From a virus (taxonomy: Duplodnaviria; Heunggongvirae; Uroviricota; Caudoviricetes): a stretch of 40,805 nucleotides of DNA. Every line of letters starts with the position of its first letter. Position 1 is the first letter of the stretch. The stretch lies in IMG/VR virus record IMGVR_UViG_2706794686_000017; one strand, 5' to 3'. The notes under the pieces were generated by a model. That model was given only the letters and a program-made list of their open reading frames with translations, did no database searches and was not told where the DNA came from. The position numbers and the translations under genes were made by a program. Of the stretch, positions 17,446 to 30,949 are shown piece after piece.

Positions 17446-18246
17446 ATTCCTCCTCCCCGCCATGCATGATCTCCACCATGCGCTGCGTCATTCGGACAAA
17501 TCCATTTTCAATAGCCTGCTGATAATCAATGATCACCAGCGCCGACTCCTCGAAAAGGCACTGAATTTCAGCGGGGGCATGAGCGTAATAGTCCGCAATT
17601 CTGCTGAAATTAAACACCGTGTGACGTTCTGCTGCACACAGGAGGAATTTCTCAATATCAGGATCAAGGGACGCCGAACGTATCCGGCTGATCAGCTCCT
17701 GAGTTTTCGTATCGTCGTACAGTTCACTGATATCCGGTTTACCGCCTGACGGCTCATAAACAGGCGTATCAATTTTCGTCGTATACGGCTCCTCCTCATT
17801 TCCTGTACCGGGCAAAACATCCGTCAACAGTTCATCAATTTCTGCCGGGATGAAGCCTGTCAGGGAGACATCAAAATCAGCATTGATTAGGTCCGACAGC
17901 TCCATCCGCNNNNNNNNNNNNNNNNNNNNNNNNNNNNNNNNNNNNNNNNNNNNNNNNNNNNNNNNNNNNNNNNNNNNNNNNNNNNNNNNNNNNNNNNNNN
18001 NNNNNNNNNNNNNNNNNNNNNNNNNNNNNNNNNNNNNNNNNNNNNNNNNNNNNNNNNNNNNNNNNNNNNNNNNNNNNNNNNNNNNNNNNNNNNNNNNNNN
18101 NNNNNNNNNNNNNNNNNNNNNNNNNNNNNNNNNNNNNNNNNNNNNNNNNNNNNNNNNNNNNNNNNNNNNNNGTGCGTCCTGGCGTTGTGCGCATACGGTG
18201 ACAATTCTTGTAATGGGCGATAGACTATCTTTAATTTCTCGCTCAT
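17438..18246 (-). CDS. ParB N-terminal domain (ParB-like nuclease) protein, interrupted by N-run 17910..18171
   Basis: N-terminus MSEKLKIVYRPLQELSPYAHNARTH is typical of ParB/Srx-like domains; acidic C-terminal part follows the N-run. Confidence 0.55.
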
Positions 18247-18383
18247 ACAGCCTTGCTTTATGAATAAAACGCACCCCAGCAGCCAGTGCTACTGGGGGCG
18301 GAGGTGTTGCTGGTAAAGTTAGGTATTGGATCAATGAGTGAGTCAACATAATATTAAACTCACAATTATAAATCAGCCATATA

Positions 18384-19841
18384 TTAGGAGCGCCAAAAAA
18401 AACCTGAAAACAATATAATAACAGGATAAATTTCAAGGCGACCAAGAATCATAGCTATGCACATTAAATATTTTGCAATGTCATTAAGCACTCCGAATGA
18501 CGATGCAGTAGCCCCAAAACCTAATCCCATATTATTAATACATGCAGCCACTGTTGCAAATGATGTAAGAAAATCATATCCCATACCATTTAACACCAGT
18601 ATAAAAAACACCGTGAAGAGAGTATAAAGAAAAAAGAAACTCCATACAGACCTCATTACACGATCTGTAACTATCTTCCCTCCTACATTTACACTCAACA
18701 ACGCTCTGGGATGAGAAAGCTGATTTATCTCGTGTTTGCTTTGTTTGAAAAGTATAAGAAATCGAAGTGACTTAATTCCACCACAGGTTGAACCTATACA
18801 TCCCCCAAAGAAACTTGACAACAGCAAAAACACTATCGTGTGCGTGGGCCAGTTTGCATAATCCTGCGTAGCTAAACCATTATCAGTGAGCATGGAGCTG
18901 GCAAGAAAAAACGAATGAATAAAACTTCCATGCAAGTCATACATACCTATATGCCAGACCTGGAAAGAGGTAACAATGATCACCCCTAAGGCTATTAACA
19001 GAAAGAAACGAAGTTCAATATCTCTGATTAAAGGTTTTATCGTTTTTCTGCTAATAACAATATACCAAAGAGTGAAGTTGAAAGCCGATAGCAGGGAAAA
19101 AGAACCAGCCACCAGCTCAACCAAATAGTTATTAAAATATCCGATACTCTCGCTATGAGTTGAGAAACCACCAAGCGAAACTGTGGAAATCCCGTGACAA
19201 ATAGCATCAAACAAAGGCATTCCTGCAAGTCTATAACAGACAATACAAGCAATACCTAATAAAGAATAAGTTATCCACAGTGTCCGTGACGTATCGGCCA
19301 GGCGGGGAGTGAGTTTGTCATCCTTAAATGGCCCCGGCATTTCTGACTGATAAAGCTTTGCACCACCAATACCCAATAATGGCAATACTGCAACCGCCAG
19401 AACAATAACTCCTAAACCACCTATAAAATTTAACTGTGACCGATAGTACAAATATGCCCGAGGTAATGAACTAACATCATCAATTACAGTTGCTCCTGTT
19501 GTTGTTATTCCAGAAACCCCTTCAAACAGAGCATCAATGAACGTTAAATTAAGTTCTGAGTCAATCCATAAAGGGAATGCACTAATAACAGAAAACAAAA
19601 TCCAAAACATTACAATTATAATAAACCCATCACGGGTACGTAATTGAATGCCAGATTTCTTAGTTGTATACCACGCTCCGCCACCAATGCAAAAAAATAT
19701 AACGAAAGTTATAAAGAAAACGAACAGGCTTTTTTCTTTATAAAACAATGCTACAACCATTGGTGGCAACATTGAAAGACTATAGAGCCAAACCAGGAAC
19801 CCACACATATGAGTAACAACTCTTACATGAGATGTATTCAT
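18384..19841 (-). CDS. trkG: Trk-system potassium uptake protein TrkG (TrkH/KtrB family)
   Basis: 485 aa from MNTSHVRVVTHMCGFLVWLY; polytopic membrane protein with repeated pore-loop glycine motifs; matches the Rac-prophage-encoded TrkG as recalled. Confidence 0.85.
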   Translation of the reverse strand: MNTSHVRVVTHMCGFLVWLYSLSMLPPMVVALFYKEKSLFVFFITFVIFFCIGGGAWYTTKKSGIQLRTRDGFIIIVMFWILFSVISAFPLWIDSELNLTFIDALFEGVSGITTTGATVIDDVSSLPRAYLYYRSQLNFIGGLGVIVLAVAVLPLLGIGGAKLYQSEMPGPFKDDKLTPRLADTSRTLWITYSLLGIACIVCYRLAGMPLFDAICHGISTVSLGGFSTHSESIGYFNNYLVELVAGSFSLLSAFNFTLWYIVISRKTIKPLIRDIELRFFLLIALGVIIVTSFQVWHIGMYDLHGSFIHSFFLASSMLTDNGLATQDYANWPTHTIVFLLLSSFFGGCIGSTCGGIKSLRFLILFKQSKHEINQLSHPRALLSVNVGGKIVTDRVMRSVWSFFFLYTLFTVFFILVLNGMGYDFLTSFATVAACINNMGLGFGATASSFGVLNDIAKYLMCIAMILGRLEIYPVIILFSGFFWRS

Positions 19842-19978
19842 ATCTAAATATTCTTTCAATTATAACCACCTTGCTGCAATATTATGATTATACTGTATAA
19901 AATTTAACTCCTCTTAGATCTTACTTCACTGTTCCTTATGAAACAATCATCAAAATGAATCATATTGTAGTTAAGATT

Positions 19979-20443
19979 TTACTTTAAACACTGCTCGGTT
20001 ATGTATTGCTGAGCACCTTCAAGTTGGGCCTGCATCATTACCAGTCGTTCCCGGAGGGTGAAATAATCCCGTTCAGCGGTGTCTGCCAGTCGGGGGGAGG
20101 CTGCATTATCCACGCCGGAGGCGGTGGTGGCTTCACGCACTGACTGACAGACTGCTTTGATGTGCAACCGACGACGACCAGCGGCAACATCATCACGCAG
20201 AGCATCATTTTCAGCTTTCGCATCAGCTAACTCCTTCGTGTATTTTGCATCGAGCGCAGCAACATCACGCTGACGCATCTGCATGTCAGTAATTGCCGCG
20301 TTCGCCAGCTTCAGTTCTCTGGCATTTTTGTCGCGCTGGGCTTTGTAGGTAATGGCGTTATCACGGTAATGATTAACAGCCCATGACAGGCAGACGATGA
20401 TGCAGATAACCAGAGCGGAGATAATCGCGGTTACTCTGTTCAT
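19979..20443 (-). CDS. rz: Inner-membrane spanin Rz
   Basis: ORF with N-terminal transmembrane segment then coiled coil, overlapping the endolysin stop. Confidence 0.8.
20038..20223 (-). CDS. rz1: Outer-membrane lipoprotein spanin Rz1, embedded in Rz in the +1 frame
   Basis: 61-aa [26 protein letters not shown]... with lipobox and proline-rich [15 protein letters not shown] region. Confidence 0.8.
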
Positions 20444-21357
20444 TGCTGACCCCACAAACAGATTTCACGCTCAATCTCACGACGAGTCATGAGACCTTTC
20501 CATTGCTTACCGCCAGCATATGTCCAGCGACGTAGCTGATCACATGCGCCTTTGATATCGCCCTGGTTTATTTTGCGAAGAAGCGTCGATGTTCTGAAAT
20601 TGCCAGCACCCACGTTGTAAACGAATGAGTAAAGAGCGCCGCGCGTTGTTTCCGGTATATCGACTTTGATGTACGGGTTAATTTGTCTGGCGACAGTGGC
20701 AAGGTCTTTATTCAAGAGTGTTTTGCATTCTGCTTTGGTATACGTTTTACCGAGCATGATGTCTTTTCCTGTATGCCCGTGACATACAGTCCATACACCA
20801 ACAATATCTTTGTATGGTATGTAGCTGACACCTTCCAGACCATCGTTACCACTTGGGCCAGTGATTAACACTGATGCTATAGCAATTGCTCCGCCACCAA
20901 TAGCAGCAGCAACNCCTTTCCATTGCTTACCGCCAGCATATGTCCAGCGACGTAGCTGATCACATGCGCCTTTGATATCGCCCTGGTTTATTTTGCGAAG
21001 AAGCGTCGATGTTCTGAAATTGCCAGCGCCCACGTTGTAAACGAACGAGTAAAGAGCGCCGCGCGTTGTTTCCGGTATATCGACTTTGATGTACGGGTTA
21101 ATTTGTCTGGCGACAGTGGCAAGGTCTTTATTCAAGAGTGTTTTGCATTCTGCTTTGGTATACGTTTTACCGAGCATGATGTCTTTTCCTGTATGCCCGT
21201 GACATACAGTCCATACACCAATGATATCTTTGTATGGTATGTAGCTGACACCTTCCAGACCATCGTTACCACTTGGGCCAGTGATTAACACTGATGCTAT
21301 AGCAATTGCTCCGCCACCAATAGCAGCAGCAACGACTTTTCGTAATGATGGAGGCAT
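20440..21357 (-). CDS. Endolysin (lysozyme with N-terminal signal-anchor-release-like segment); ORF carries an in-frame tandem duplication at the single N (20914)
   Basis: [44 protein letters not shown]... followed by a second near-identical 140-codon copy; an unduplicated gene would encode about 165 aa. Confidence 0.75.
20495..21333. repeat. Tandem direct repeat, 2 x about 420 bp (20495..20913 and 20915..21333) joined at N 20914
   Basis: The two copies differ at only three positions seen by eye (gccagcaccc vs gccagcgccc; acgaatgagt vs acgaacgagt; caacaatatc vs caatgatatc). Confidence 0.85.
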
Positions 21358-21572
21358 TATTCACCTCTCGCAGCCTTGCGCTTATCTTCTTTAATCTTGA
21401 AATAAAGGTTTGTCAGGTACGTCAGCAGGCCAAATACCAGACTACCCAGCACACCGATTGCAGCCCACTGTGACGGAGTTACTCTATCGAGCAACTGTAA
21501 AAACCAGTAGCCAGCACTGCCTGCGGAGGTGCCGTAGGCAATGCCTGTTGAAATTTTGTCCATGGATTTCAT
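21357..21572 (-). CDS. Holin (class II, EssD/EssQ-like)
   Basis: 71 aa from [31 protein letters not shown]...; two hydrophobic segments and a charged C-terminus; immediately upstream of the endolysin. Confidence 0.8.
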
Positions 21573-21823
21573 AGCCTCACCTCCGCACGGAACGGATGGC
21601 ATAGTTATTATGTGTAGGCTTTCAGACACATCAATCAGAGCCTTAATTGATATATATGCTGGAGACGATGCAATATAAAAAGCTCGCCGTAGCGAGCTAA
21701 TAAAATGTATTTCTCTGATATTATGTTTATTTGTATTAGCTCAGACTTGACATCACAGGTTTCGTATATAGAACATCATCAAATCTGTCAGTTTGCTATG
21801 AATGAGATATAGTAATTGAAGAG

Positions 21824-22219
21824 CTAACCTCGCATGTCAAAGCCAGATTTCTGAAAATCTCTGTAGACTTCCGGATTGTTGAAGGCCGGAAATTTGGCTT
21901 TATGAGCTGCGGACTTTATCGCTTCGCAATAGGCTTTATCACCGTTACTGGTAGATATTTTTAACGCCGTGCCATCCTGAGAGAATTCCATATGCAACCT
22001 GCATTTTTTCCCTTTCCAGTTATGCGGCTCATCAAGTTTGGCATTAATTGCAGCTCTGATTCCCCGCGCTTGCGCCCCCCATTCATCCTGATCATCCCAG
22101 CGTCCTGAACTGCAACTACCTGTAGCAGTAGTTTTGTGGCAATCTGAAGGGTGTAAAGGTGTGCATCCCGCAACAAAACCGACCCAAAAAGTCAACATAA
22201 CGATTTTCTTTAATCCCAC
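21824..22219 (-). CDS. Lipoprotein with TolA C-terminal (domain III)-like fold, paralogue 1
   Basis: GTG start with GAGGAG ribosome-binding site; signal peptide and lipobox VAGC; C-terminal GKKCRLHMEFSQDGTALKISTSNGDKAYCEAIKSAAHKAKFPAFNNPEVYRDFQ aligns with paralogue 2 and with TolA domain III as recalled. Confidence 0.55.
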   Translation of the reverse strand: MGLKKIVMLTFWVGFVAGCTPLHPSDCHKTTATGSCSSGRWDDQDEWGAQARGIRAAINAKLDEPHNWKGKKCRLHMEFSQDGTALKISTSNGDKAYCEAIKSAAHKAKFPAFNNPEVYRDFQKSGFDMRG

Positions 22220-22369
22220 TTCTTGCTCCTCAATCCATTAAAATCTCAGCAATAGTAGTTGTTACGTCCGCCACTGGCTCAGAGCTGACTATCCGCTAAA
22301 TTTAGCTCAGTGCCGTAGCTGTGTCAGAACAAACCTAAGCCGAAACCGTTTATTACAAAACAATAAATA

Positions 22370-22798
22370 TCAGGGTTTAAAATCCAGCACCCCATTTTGA
22401 AATACTTTATATACTTCCGGCGAAGGGGGGGCAGGTATATCAGCATTCTTTATCGCATTCATCGCTTCACGACATAAATCGAGGTCTCCACTTTCTCTTT
22501 TAACCTCCAGTAGAAGGCCATTCGGGGCCATATGCATTCTCAGTGTACACTCTTTTCCTGAATACTTACTCGCATCCCCGAACTGTTTTTCGATGGCGCT
22601 CTTGATTTGATGGGCATACAGACGGATATCCTCACTAACATCAGAAGTACGTTCAGATGAACTCACATACTGTGTCTCTATTGCTTTATCGGAGTAATAT
22701 GATGTACGGTCATGATAATTTGTCGATACAGCATCAGTGCACCCGATAATAATCCCACTAATAATCAACGTAAGAATTGATGCGCTACGAAAACCCAT
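22370..22798 (-). CDS. Lipoprotein with TolA C-terminal (domain III)-like domain, paralogue 2
   Basis: Signal peptide and lipobox IIGC; C-terminus HQIKSAIEKQFGDASKYSGKECTLRMHMAPNGLLLEVKRESGDLDLCREAMNAIKNADIPAPPSPEVYKVFQNGVLDFKP closely resembles the E. coli TolA C-terminus as recalled. Confidence 0.65.
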   Translation of the reverse strand: MGFRSASILTLIISGIIIGCTDAVSTNYHDRTSYYSDKAIETQYVSSSERTSDVSEDIRLYAHQIKSAIEKQFGDASKYSGKECTLRMHMAPNGLLLEVKRESGDLDLCREAMNAIKNADIPAPPSPEVYKVFQNGVLDFKP

Positions 22799-22827
22799 TT
22801 TTCCTCACATATGTCATATAGTAAAGG

Positions 22828-22857
22828 ATTATATATACCGTTGTTTTGGACGCTCAA
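22828..22857 (-). promoter_or_regulatory. Candidate sigma70 promoter for the TolA-III-like lipoprotein gene
   Basis: Minus strand TTGAGC, 18-nt spacer, TATAAT, about 30 nt upstream of the GAGGAAA ribosome-binding site and ATG. Confidence 0.4.
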
Positions 22858-23431
22858 ACAGCGAATCAGATCAAATAAAACGCACATTTGTTAACATTTA
22901 CACAAAGTCTGCGTGGGATATTCTGAAAGAATATCCATAATGTGGAGAGANNNNNNNNNNNNNNNNNNNNNNNNNNNNNNNNNNNNNNNNNNNNNNNNNN
23001 NNNNNNNNNNNNNNNNNNNNNNNNNNNNNNNNNNNNNNNNNNNNNNNNNNNNNNNNNNNNNNNNNNNNNNNNNNNNNNNNNNNNNNNNNNNNNNNNNNNN
23101 NNNNNGGTCATCATCAGATGACTGGAAAAAAGGAAAACAAAAAATACTCATCATACAGTTTTGATTGCAGGGATGAGCCTGCTATGCACAATATGCAGAA
23201 TATAAGCAAGATAANNNNNNNNNNNNNNNNNNNNNNNNNNNNNNNNNNNNNNNNNATCAGGATAACGCATCATCAGCCCCTGCCAAGAAATATCAAAACT
23301 CCCGCCAGCAATGTGTTATCACAATATTGTAAAAAAAACACAGCACCGAAACTATAACTGGTCTCTGTTATAATTTGGAGCAGAAAGACCAGTTGCCCAA
23401 CTAGCAGCATTCTCCCCTGCTTTCCTGACGT

Positions 23432-23458
23432 AAAAAAACCGCATTAAGCGGTTTTTTT
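23432..23458 (-). terminator. Intrinsic terminator downstream of Q (tR'-like)
   Basis: AAAAAAA-CCGC-attaa-GCGG-TTTTTTT hairpin about 80 bp downstream of the Q-like ORF stop. Confidence 0.55.
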
Positions 23459-23538
23459 ACGATGTCCATGTCTGCAATCCGCCTCGCGATACAGCTTTGC
23501 GAAGCATAGCAAAATTGAAGCAGTTTATACGTAAGAAA

Positions 23539-23857
23539 TCAAGCCATTTTCTCAGCAAATGATTCACGCATGGGAATATATAGGGCATACTCAGCAACAG
23601 CTAACCAATTAGCAATCCGTTTTTCGCATGTGCTAAAACACCACTCTGGGTGTGCATCATTTAGCAATTCAGCCATTTTGCGCTTAGTCATCCCCCGCCC
23701 TTCATAGCGTTGCCGGAGAATGCAAATCAATCCTGGATGCTCTGCCAGCACCTCACTTATGACTCGATCAATACATAACGCCTCTGCATCAGTACAATGC
23801 GCCAGCCAGCTCTTTTGCTTGCCGTTGATCATCTCTCGCAAAAACGCTTCCAGCTCN
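23539..23857 (-). CDS. Late antiterminator Q-like protein, C-terminal part (N-terminus masked by N-run)
   Basis: Visible C-terminal 105 aa (...CTDAEALCIDRVISEVLAEHPGLICILRQRYEGRGMTKRKMAELLNDAHPEWCFSTCEKR...); position immediately upstream of tR'-like terminator and lysis genes. Confidence 0.5.
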
Positions 23858-24456
23858 NNNNNNNNNNNNNNNNNNNNNNNNNNNNNNNNNNNNNNNNNNN
23901 NNNNNNNNNNNNNNNNNNNNNNNNNNNNNNNNNNNNNNNNNNNNNNNNNNNNNNNNNNNNNNNNNNNNNNNNNNNNNNNNNNNNNNNNNNNNNNNNNNNN
24001 NNNNNNNNNNNNNNNNNNNNNNNNNNNNNNNNNNNNNNNNNNNNNNNNNNNNNNNNNNNNNNNNNNNNNNNNNNNNNNNNNNNNNNNNNNNNNNNNNNNN
24101 NNNNNNNNNNNNNNNNNNNNNNNNNNNNNNNNNNNNNNNNNNNNNNNNNNNNNNNNNNNNNNNNNNNNNNNNNNNNNNNNNNNNNNNNNNNNNAGCATGC
24201 ANNNNNNNNNNNNNNNNNNNNNNNNNNNNNNNNNNNNNNNNNNNNNNNNNNNNNNNNNNNNNNNNNNNNNNNNNNNNNNNNNNNNNNNNNNNNNNNNNNN
24301 NNNNNNNNNNNNNNNNNNNNNNNNNNNNNNNNNNNNNNNNNNNNNNNNNNNNNNNNNNNNNNNNNNNNNNNNNNNNNNNNNNNNNNNNNNNNNNNNNNNN
24401 NNNNNNNNNNNNNNNNNNNNNNNNNNNNNNNNNNNNNNNNNNNNNNNNNNNNNNNN

Positions 24457-30202: not shown

Positions 30203-30949
30203 TTACTTCTCAATTCCTGGCTGGACGACATTCGGACGCCAGCTCTCCCAGTTAAAATTCACCCATCGCCCGCCGTTCATGGTCATGCGATCCATAATCC
30301 GCTCGCCGAGCAATGTTTTCATGGCCTCATAGTTCAGGTTTGTCAGCATCCCCACGCTGCGCATCGACGCTGTCCGGCGATCAACAATCTGGTGCAGCAC
30401 CACCTGCTCGTTTTTCGTCTCGCGCTGAATGCCAATTTCATCAAGAACCAGCAGATCCACTTCGCACAGCTCCCGCAAAAATTTTTCGCCTGACTGCCCG
30501 TCGTCATAGCTGGCGTGCAGGGCGCTCATAACATCAGCCACGGTAACCACAATCACTGTCTGACCGTCTTTCAGCAGGCGATTCCCGATAGCTGCCGCTA
30601 AGTGGTTCTTCCCGGTACCAGGTTTTCCGCTGAACGCAAAATTTGTACACCCGGTCATCAGTTCATCAGCGATGGATTTCGCCTGACTCAACGCGTATCG
30701 CTGCGCTTCGTTCTGCACCTGGTAATTCGAAAACGAGCATTTGCGGTGCAATGGCTGGATGCCAGAGCGATTCAGAATTTTTTCCACCCGCAACTGACGA
30801 TTCTGACGGTTGATCTCCTCACAACGTTTCTGGCCTTCGGAAAGTTGCCACTCGCGCCACTCCGCTACCGTCTTGAATGGCGCGGTTACATGTGACGGGG
30901 CCAGTCTGCGGATACGTTCAAGAACGTCGCCTGTCGCAATATTTTTCAT
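30203..30949 (-). CDS. ydaV: DnaC-like helicase loader (replication protein)
   Basis: 248-aa ORF with Walker [10 protein letters not shown] and Walker [10 protein letters not shown]. Confidence 0.8.

What the first reader, a model, noticed from the sequence alone, without database searches (positions are those of the whole stretch)
20495..21333. Near-perfect 420-bp tandem duplication inside the endolysin gene, joined at a single N
Two 419-bp copies differing at three positions are separated by one N at 20914. The result is an in-frame 305-aa ORF in which 140 codons of the endolysin are repeated. A single N at the exact repeat junction is what a scaffolding join produces; the three differences suggest the two ends could come from paralogous lysis cassettes of different prophages. 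If so, sequence left and right of 20914 might not be contiguous in the genome.
Basis: seen in the sequence. Interest (0 to 1): 0.45.

Follow-up and report, generated by a model that had tools for sequence, protein, structure and literature searches.

The report
Assembly-join artefact duplicating a prophage endolysin
The apparent 420-bp tandem duplication is almost certainly two overlapping sequence ends that a draft-genome scaffolder placed side by side with a one-N placeholder instead of merging them; the real locus is an ordinary single-copy 165-aa endolysin of a Rac-like prophage in Shigella sonnei.

Summary
Window 20495-20913 and 20915-21333 are 419-nt direct copies separated by one N, and they create a 305-aa ORF. 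They differ at four nucleotides, not three.

The window is a public Shigella sonnei draft scaffold (CWUD01000015.1) with seven other N runs. It is colinear throughout with the Rac prophage of E. coli.

Deleting one copy and the N gives a sequence 100% identical over 3481 nt to complete E. coli genomes. That sequence encodes a full-length 165-aa phage-21/RrrD-type endolysin. A sister S. sonnei assembly has the same locus gap-free and single-copy. Among 5.8 billion proteins, only this record's own protein has the doubled architecture.

Both flanks are Rac, so the join order is right. The error is an unmerged overlap, a "negative gap" of the kind gap-closing tools are reported to produce.

The four differences match alleles of a paralogous endolysin named from S. 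sonnei. Which copy is this isolate's true allele cannot be settled without reads: copy 1 is the universal Rac allele, and copy 2 is the sister assembly's allele.

This is not a biological feature, and interest is low.

The parts
20495..20913 (.). Copy 1 of the overlap: the last 419 nt of the left sequence block (18172-20913). Haplotype H1, the universal Rac-prophage endolysin allele.
   Evidence: The collapsed sequence keeping this copy is 100% identical over 3481 nt to complete E. coli genomes. Its protein P0122 was found only in Rac context in the 10 places shown.
20914..20914 (.). Single N: a placeholder for a join with no read-through, i.e. an unmerged overlap or negative gap. It is not an unknown base inside a real junction.
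   Evidence: the N is in the public record. Both repeat copies end exactly at it. The reference distance across the join is -425 nt, i.e. an overlap.
20915..21333 (.). Copy 2 of the overlap: the first 419 nt of the right sequence block (20915-22950). Haplotype H2, which is H1 with G21028, C21046, T21222 and G21223.
   Evidence: There is no exact match in 5426 complete E. coli genomes. It is an exact match, as a single copy, in sister S. sonnei assembly CWYT01000014.1. The four alleles co-occur in paralog H3.
20440..21357 (-). Artefactual 305-aa ORF with two SAR segments and two lysozyme domains. It is deposited in NCBI as 'bacteriophage lambda lysozyme [Shigella sonnei]'. The real gene is 20440-20913 joined to 21334-21357 (or equivalently 20440-20494 joined to 20915-21357), 165 aa.
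   Evidence: ORF. (two PF00959 stretches). (P0001 is a singleton; every other hit covers at most 53% of the query). (the collapsed protein aligns 1-165 to PDB 4zpu RrrD and 3hde, E about 1e-110).
21357..21572 (-). Phage-21-type holin (71 aa, starts MKSMDK), immediately upstream of the endolysin with a 1-nt overlap.
   Evidence: translation. (PF04971 Phage_holin_2_1, E 2e-35). Annotated essD in complete genomes.
19979..20443 (-). Rz-type lysis protein (154 aa, inner-membrane spanin component). The Rz1 lipoprotein (61 aa) is embedded at 20038-20223 in another frame.
   Evidence: (PF03245, E 3.5e-53; PF06085 Rz1, E 2e-19).
18384..19841 (-). trkG potassium transporter, the Rac-prophage cargo gene that identifies the left flank as Rac.
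   Evidence: PF02386 TrkH, 485 aa.
21824..22798 (-). Two TolA C-terminal-domain genes (21824-22219 and 22370-22798) that identify the right flank as the same Rac late region.
   Evidence: PF06519 TolA. They are contiguous with the lysis genes and trkG in 440 complete genomes.

Best explanation
The duplication is an assembly artefact: an unmerged overlap ("negative gap", or duplicated overlapping contig ends) at a scaffold join in a short-read draft of Shigella sonnei.

Two sequence blocks are truly adjacent in the Rac-like prophage. One comes in from the trkG/Rz side. The other comes in from the holin side. Both were extended across the same 419 nt of the endolysin gene. The software did not merge them and left the minimum gap of one N, so 140 codons appear twice.

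The real locus is the ordinary phage-21-type lysis cassette: holin, a single 165-aa SAR endolysin of the RrrD/R21 type, and Rz/Rz1.

Shown:
- the repeat geometry;
- the perfect single-copy match after collapse;
- the single-copy, gap-free sister assembly;
- the uniqueness of the doubled protein.

Inferred:
- the tool chain (Velvet + SSPACE + GapFiller of the Sanger pipeline);
- the mechanism: both edges are extended base by base, and closure is rejected when the fill size disagrees with the estimated gap, so the two extensions overshoot each other;
- the reason the ends differ: the endolysin has near-identical paralogs in other prophages, so the two ends were built from different mixtures of templates. 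Which end is this isolate's true allele is unresolved.
For: 1. Geometry. Both copies end exactly at the N, and identity stops at both outer edges.

2. The scaffold is heavily gapped. It has seven other N runs whose lengths differ from the true sequence by -209 to +69 nt, so gap estimates here were poor.

3. Collapsing gives 3481/3481 identity in one piece to three complete E. coli genomes and at least 80% coverage in 440. There the gene is annotated as a 498-bp rrrD.

4. Sister S. sonnei scaffold CWYT01000014.1 has no N in 20.5 kb and a single copy. It is 100% identical over 4359 nt to the window collapsed on copy 2.

5. The 305-aa protein is a singleton from this very record (CWUD01000015.1). 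The 119 other listed hits cover at most 53% of it. The junction is absent from IMG/VR.

6. The collapsed protein is full-length against RrrD/R21 structures, residues 1-165 of 165.

7. Literature:
- The Sanger pipeline (Velvet, SSPACE, 120 GapFiller iterations) was applied to 299 S. sonnei genomes (PMC5320598).
- GapFiller extends from both edges, uses majority voting at ambiguous bases and rejects closures that differ by more than 50 nt from the estimate (PMC3446322).
- Gap closing "also produced tandem duplications" (PMC4804174).
- "Duplicated overlapping contigs" and "negative gaps" are recognised error classes (PMC2864568; bioRxiv 10.1101/2021.10.21.465348).

8. All four differing bases are the alleles of a paralogous endolysin (protein P0121). 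That paralog is named from S. sonnei/Shigella and seen on at least 1000 contigs.
Against: - No reads were available, so depth and junction support are untested.
- The assembly method of GCA_001248425.1 is inferred from the accession series, the species and the annotation style. It was not read from the record.
- An overlap of 419 nt would need the gap estimate to be about 420 nt too large. That is more than the errors seen at the other gaps (up to 209 nt).
- The two ends are not simply "true allele plus noise". Copy 2 switches between Rac-type (C at 21196) and paralog-type (T at 21222) within 26 nt. A k-mer chimera of Rac and paralog reads would need k of 25 or less. The same haplotype also recurs exactly in the sister assembly.
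- If copy 2 is real, copy 1 cannot be built from copy 2 plus the paralogs seen, because T at 20626 is Rac-specific. Two real templates may therefore exist in the sample.
- In a de Bruijn graph, a real tandem duplication would also break contigs at the unit boundaries. The central position of the N is therefore weaker evidence than it first looks.
Confidence: 0.92

Rival explanations
1. Chimeric join. The two ends belong to lysis cassettes of two different prophages, or to two copies of a Rac-like segment. Sequence left and right of 20914 would then not be adjacent in the genome, or only one end would belong here.
For: The two ends carry different haplotypes. Each looks like a real haplotype rather than noise. 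H1 is the universal Rac allele. H2 recurs exactly in a sister assembly. Under large k, H1 cannot be derived from H2 plus paralog H3, nor H2 from H1 plus H3. E. coli genomes have a median of 3 places matching this lysis region, and S. sonnei carries a paralogous endolysin.
Against: Outside the four sites, both blocks are 100% identical to the sister scaffold, where they are continuous without any N. The same order is continuous in 440 complete E. coli genomes. The whole 40.8-kb window is colinear with Rac. H1 was seen only in Rac context in the 10 places shown. Copy 2 is Rac-type at 15 of 19 paralog-discriminating sites, and its right flank is pure Rac. A second locus would have to duplicate at least 2.7 kb of trkG-Rz without a single difference.
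Confidence: 0.04
2. Real in-frame 420-bp tandem duplication within the endolysin gene. It would give a 305-aa protein with two SAR segments and two catalytic domains. The N would be one unresolved base. The sister assembly would have collapsed the repeat.
For: The period is 420, a multiple of 3, so the frame is kept. The copies carry two haplotypes that both look real. A short-read assembler would collapse such a repeat. It would prefer the G/C/TG alleles, whose k-mers are shared with the paralog. That could explain why the sister assembly is single-copy with H2.
Against: The junction itself was never sequenced through (N at 20914). The base at the junction would be unambiguous from at least one side in a real duplication, yet it is N. 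No other genome or protein shows the architecture: 440 complete genomes are single-copy, P0001 is a singleton among 5.8 billion proteins and the junction is absent from IMG/VR. A fresh duplication gives identical copies, so four paralog-matching differences would need two further conversion patches. Keeping the frame has a 1 in 3 chance anyway. Gap closers are reported to create exactly such tandem duplications.
Confidence: 0.04

Closest known systems
Duplicated overlapping contigs / negative gaps in scaffolds (Kelley & Salzberg 2010, PMC2864568), and tandem duplications created by gap closers (PMC4804174)
   Same: Two adjacent sequence blocks in one scaffold align to each other at their facing ends and are separated only by a gap character. 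The near-identical copies differ at a few sites. Merging them restores the sequence seen in independent assemblies.
   Different: In vertebrate assemblies the differing ends come from two haplotypes of a diploid. Here the genome is haploid, and the candidate source of variation is paralogous prophage endolysin genes. Mate-pair support, the criterion used in that paper, could not be examined.
Phage 21 R / E. coli RrrD SAR endolysin (PDB 3HDE, 3HDF, 4ZPU), within the phage-21-type lysis cassette with holin and Rz/Rz1
   Same: The collapsed gene is 165 aa. It aligns over residues 1-165 with three substitutions to RrrD. It has PF00959, the Gly/Ala-rich N-terminal segment, and E35, D44 and T50 at the positions known as catalytic in R21. 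The role of those residues is from my own knowledge of the R21 literature; their presence is read from the sequence. It is flanked by a P21-type holin and Rz/Rz1.
   Different: Nothing of note. The allele is the common Rac-prophage one (P0122), or its V46I variant (P0123).
Rac prophage of E. coli (trkG, recET, intR next to ttcA)
   Same: The whole window is colinear with Rac of NCTC10444, from the tail gene J to intR.
   Different: The host is Shigella sonnei. The late region is intact, unlike the deleted K-12 Rac (the K-12 state is from my own knowledge).

Membership tests
Unmerged-overlap scaffold artefact (negative gap / duplicated overlapping contig ends) | The two copies lie on either side of a gap character, and each runs right up to it | tested here: met
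   copy 1 ends at 20913, the N is at 20914 and copy 2 starts at 20915. Identity stops at 20494 and 21334.
Unmerged-overlap scaffold artefact (negative gap / duplicated overlapping contig ends) | The sequence is a scaffolded draft with other gaps of estimated size | tested here: met
   seven other N runs; their lengths differ from the true sequence; the window is WGS scaffold CWUD01000015.1.
Unmerged-overlap scaffold artefact (negative gap / duplicated overlapping contig ends) | Merging the ends reproduces the sequence of independent assemblies | tested here: met
   3481/3481 identity to complete genomes; 4359/4359 identity to the sister scaffold when copy 2 is kept.
Unmerged-overlap scaffold artefact (negative gap / duplicated overlapping contig ends) | Read pairs fit better after merging, depth is single-copy and no reads span the junction | not testable with these tools
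Unmerged-overlap scaffold artefact (negative gap / duplicated overlapping contig ends) | Produced by a pipeline known to leave such joins (SSPACE/GapFiller) | tested here: inconclusive
   Searches show that the Sanger S. sonnei pipeline and GapFiller behaviour fit. The method used for GCA_001248425.1 itself was not seen. That GapFiller or SSPACE leave one N is from my own memory.
Genuine tandem gene-internal duplication | The novel junction is sequenced through | tested here: not met
   The junction base is N. The junction pattern is absent from IMG/VR.
Genuine tandem gene-internal duplication | The architecture is found in related genomes or proteins | tested here: not met
   only this record's own protein has it; all relatives examined are single-copy.
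R21/RrrD-type SAR endolysin (GH24 phage lysozyme) | Full-length homology to R21/RrrD, including the N-terminal SAR segment | tested here: met
   residues 1-165 align to 4zpu and 3hde, E about 1e-110. This is for the collapsed gene.
R21/RrrD-type SAR endolysin (GH24 phage lysozyme) | Phage_lysozyme domain with the Glu-Asp-Thr catalytic residues | tested here: met
   PF00959, E 1.8e-45. E35, D44 and T50 are present in the sequence. Their catalytic role is taken from my knowledge of R21, not tested.
Phage-21-type lysis cassette (holin, SAR endolysin, Rz/Rz1) | A P21 S-type holin directly upstream, and Rz with embedded Rz1 downstream | tested here: met
   PF04971, PF03245 and PF06085. Gene order.

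The most novel reading that the evidence does not exclude
The isolate really carries an in-frame 420-bp tandem duplication of its SAR endolysin, giving two signal-arrest-release segments and two catalytic domains in one chain. One copy would have been patched by gene conversion from a paralogous prophage endolysin. The sister assembly would have collapsed the repeat.
Probability: 0.04. Interest if true: 0.3.

Novelty: not a real feature. Interest (0 to 1): 0.06.

Why it matters
Biologically it matters little: the locus is a standard Rac/phage-21-type lysis cassette.

Practically, the artefact has been propagated into public protein databases as a 305-aa "bacteriophage lambda lysozyme [Shigella sonnei]". 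It could be mistaken for a two-domain endolysin in domain-architecture or enzyme-mining surveys.

It is a clean worked example of a signature that can be screened for automatically: a single N flanked by sequence that repeats across it. It also shows that contig-end bases inside paralogous prophage genes in such drafts should not be used as SNPs.

Tried and rejected
1. Chance repeat: rejected. About 1e-232 such pairs are expected.

2. N runs as masking by the data provider: rejected. The same Ns are in the NCBI record, and their lengths differ from the true sequence.

3. Copy 2 as a whole paralogous gene from another prophage: rejected. It has no exact match in 5426 complete E. coli genomes. 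It is Rac-type at 15 of 19 sites that separate Rac from the paralog.

4. Copy 2 as pure assembly noise: I held this view until. Those showed its protein (P0123) and its exact DNA in a gap-free sister assembly, so I now leave it open which copy is the true allele.

5. Search for the junction in IMG/VR: no hit. Search for the H2-specific 48-mer in IMG/VR: no hit.

6. The argument that a central N is 840 times likelier under an artefact: withdrawn as too strong. A de Bruijn graph of a real tandem repeat also branches at the unit boundaries.

7. Literature search for an explicit statement that SSPACE or GapFiller leave exactly one N: not found. That detail rests on my memory.

8. The organism of the other P0123 contig (SSRL01000091.1, L033/L035) could not be determined. 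It ends in IS1 and carries a different DNA haplotype: T at 21222 only.

Full report
**What is in the sequence**

Window 20495-20913 and 20915-21333 are 419-nt direct copies with a 420-nt period, separated by one N at 20914. The identity stops exactly at both outer edges.

There are four nucleotide differences, not three:
- 20608 A / 21028 G
- 20626 T / 21046 C
- 20802-20803 CA / 21222-21223 TG

Chance is excluded: about 1e-232 such pairs are expected.

On the minus strand the region reads as one 305-aa ORF (20440-21357) in which 140 codons are repeated. The codon holding the N is GGN, which is Gly whatever the base.

The window contains seven other N runs, 41 to 337 nt long.

**Where the window comes from**

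A search with the 305-aa ORF found one full-length hit. It is a singleton named "bacteriophage lambda lysozyme [Shigella sonnei]". It is encoded on NCBI WGS scaffold CWUD01000015.1 (52,280 nt) of assembly GCA_001248425.1.

The window is positions 3-40807 of that record, and the Ns are in the record itself.

**Context**

The whole window is colinear with the Rac prophage of E. coli NCTC10444, from tail gene J to integrase intR. Its right two thirds are colinear with Rac of FORC_081.

Around the finding the minus-strand genes are:
- trkG (18384-19841)
- Rz (19979-20443) with embedded Rz1 (20038-20223)
- the endolysin
- a phage-21-type holin (21357-21572)
- two TolA-C-terminal-domain genes (21824-22219 and 22370-22798)

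Pfam confirms PF00959, PF04971, PF03245 and PF06085.

The N runs are estimated gaps. Their lengths differ from the sequence present in complete genomes and in a sister assembly: 262 vs 242, 155 vs 250, 41 vs 250 and 600 vs 531.

**Is the duplication real?**

1. Removing one copy plus the N, keeping copy 1, gives 3481 nt that match three complete E. coli genomes at 100% in a single piece. It matches 440 complete genomes over at least 80% of its length. There the gene is a 498-bp rrrD.
2. The collapsed protein is 165 aa and aligns over residues 1-165 of 165 to the solved RrrD and phage-21 lysozymes, E about 1e-110.
3. Sister S. sonnei scaffold CWYT01000014.1 (GCA_001250955.1) has no N in 20.5 kb and one endolysin copy. 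It is 100% identical over 4359 nt to the window collapsed on copy 2.
4. Among 5.8 billion proteins only this record's own protein has the doubled architecture. Every other listed hit covers at most 53% of it.
5. The junction sequence is absent from IMG/VR.
6. The novel junction was never read through; it is the N.

**Mechanism (inferred)**

The accession series, the species and the annotation style fit the Sanger high-throughput pipeline. That pipeline assembled 299 S. sonnei genomes with Velvet, scaffolded them with SSPACE and ran 120 iterations of GapFiller (PMC5320598).

GapFiller extends both gap edges one base at a time and uses majority voting at ambiguous positions. It accepts a closure only if the fill agrees with the estimated gap within 50 nt (PMC3446322). 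If the estimate is too large, a correct closure is rejected and the two extensions run past each other.

That such joins are left with a single N is from my own memory of the tools; I did not find it stated.

Others have reported that gap closing "also produced tandem duplications" (PMC4804174). Overlapping contig ends inside scaffolds are a described error class, called "duplicated overlapping contigs" (PMC2864568) and "negative gaps".

One weakness is that a 419-nt overshoot needs a larger gap-size error than the other gaps in this scaffold show.

**The four differences**

Copy 1 (H1) is the universal Rac allele. Its protein P0122 is listed in 10,928 index blocks, and it was in Rac context in all 10 places shown.

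Copy 2 (H2) has no exact match in 5426 complete E. coli genomes.

All four of copy 2's distinctive bases occur together in a paralogous endolysin (H3, protein P0121). That paralog is named from S. sonnei/Shigella and seen on at least 1000 contigs. H3 differs from H1 at 19 sites. H2 carries the H3 base at only four of them, in two patches.

I first read H2 as a read-mixing chimera. Two results make that uncertain:
- H2 recurs exactly, as a single copy, in the sister assembly.
- H2 switches from Rac-type (21196 C) to paralog-type (21222 T) within 26 nt, which a k-mer chimera could do only with k of 25 or less.

Conversely, if H2 is the real allele, H1 cannot be made from H2 and the paralogs seen, because T at 20626 is Rac-specific.

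A third, more distant Rac-type contig (SSRL01000091.1) carries T at 21222 alone. Natural variation at this codon (V46I) therefore exists.

Which end is this isolate's true allele, and whether two templates were present in the sample, cannot be settled without the reads.

The artefact diagnosis is right. The worry that left and right of 20914 are not contiguous is not supported:
- both flanks are Rac;
- outside the four sites they are identical to a sister scaffold in which they are continuous;
- the same order is continuous in 440 complete genomes.

**Rivals**

A chimeric join of two loci (about 4%) and a real in-frame duplication collapsed in the sister assembly (about 4%) are not excluded.

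I withdrew the argument that the central position of the N is by itself decisive. A de Bruijn graph of a real tandem repeat also breaks at the unit boundaries.

Decisive tests are reads spanning the junction, depth over the 419 nt, phasing of 21196/21222 within single reads, and a PCR of 581 versus 1001 bp between window 20400 and 21400.

**Verdict**

This is not a biological feature. The underlying gene is a known, ordinary SAR endolysin in a known prophage. The practical value is limited to flagging a mis-assembled public record and its 305-aa protein entry.

Noticed in passing
window 24194-24201: An 8-nt island (AGCATGCA) sits between two N runs (23857-24193 and 24202-24456). The same 8-mer occurs inside the 531 nt that fill this gap in NCTC10444, at offset 272. 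It may be the remnant of a small contig eroded by repeated 10-nt edge trimming during gap filling, which is speculation. A 109-nt island lies at 23106-23214.
   Followed up: partly
window 17910-24456: Five N gaps fall between 17.9 and 24.5 kb. Four of them lie in or beside the AT-rich stretch (GC 0.28-0.40 at 22-25 kb). The sister S. sonnei assembly has this whole stretch without any N. The N-run lengths are off by -209 to +69 nt relative to the true sequence.
   Followed up: partly
window 30467-30524: Four clustered differences lie in ydaV: C, C, G, G in the window versus T, T, A, A in the sister assembly and in NCTC10444. The window's 131-nt version occurs exactly in 154 complete E. coli genomes. 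It is therefore a natural allele patch, either recombination between Rac variants or a second case of patchwise mixing.
   Followed up: partly
window 10896: A single base differs between the window (A) and both the sister S. sonnei scaffold and NCTC10444 (G).
   Followed up: no
window 1-40805: The window is an apparently complete Rac-like prophage in Shigella sonnei: tail gene J, head and terminase genes, trkG, lysis cassette, replication genes, recET, and xisR/intR at the right end. It is about 99.9% identical to Rac of E. coli NCTC10444. The first 985 nt (J gene) are more divergent, at 99.1%.
   Followed up: partly
window 21824-22798: Two small genes encode TolA C-terminal-domain proteins (131 and 142 aa, PF06519). 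They sit between the late-gene regulator region and the holin. Their role in the prophage was not examined.
   Followed up: no
L033/L035 (SSRL01000091.1), endolysin at locus 183-680: An independent, more divergent Rac-type contig encodes the same V46I endolysin protein as copy 2. It does so through a different DNA haplotype, with only T at the site equivalent to 21222. The contig ends in IS1.
   Followed up: partly
P0001 (NCBI protein from CWUD01000015.1): The artefactual 305-aa protein is carried in NCBI nr and metaclust under the name 'bacteriophage lambda lysozyme [Shigella sonnei]'. Other odd-length hits in the same search are fusions with neighbouring genes, not duplications: P0005 (319 aa with an Rz domain), P0017 (300 aa) and P0109 (296 aa with a tail-fibre repeat).
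   Followed up: no
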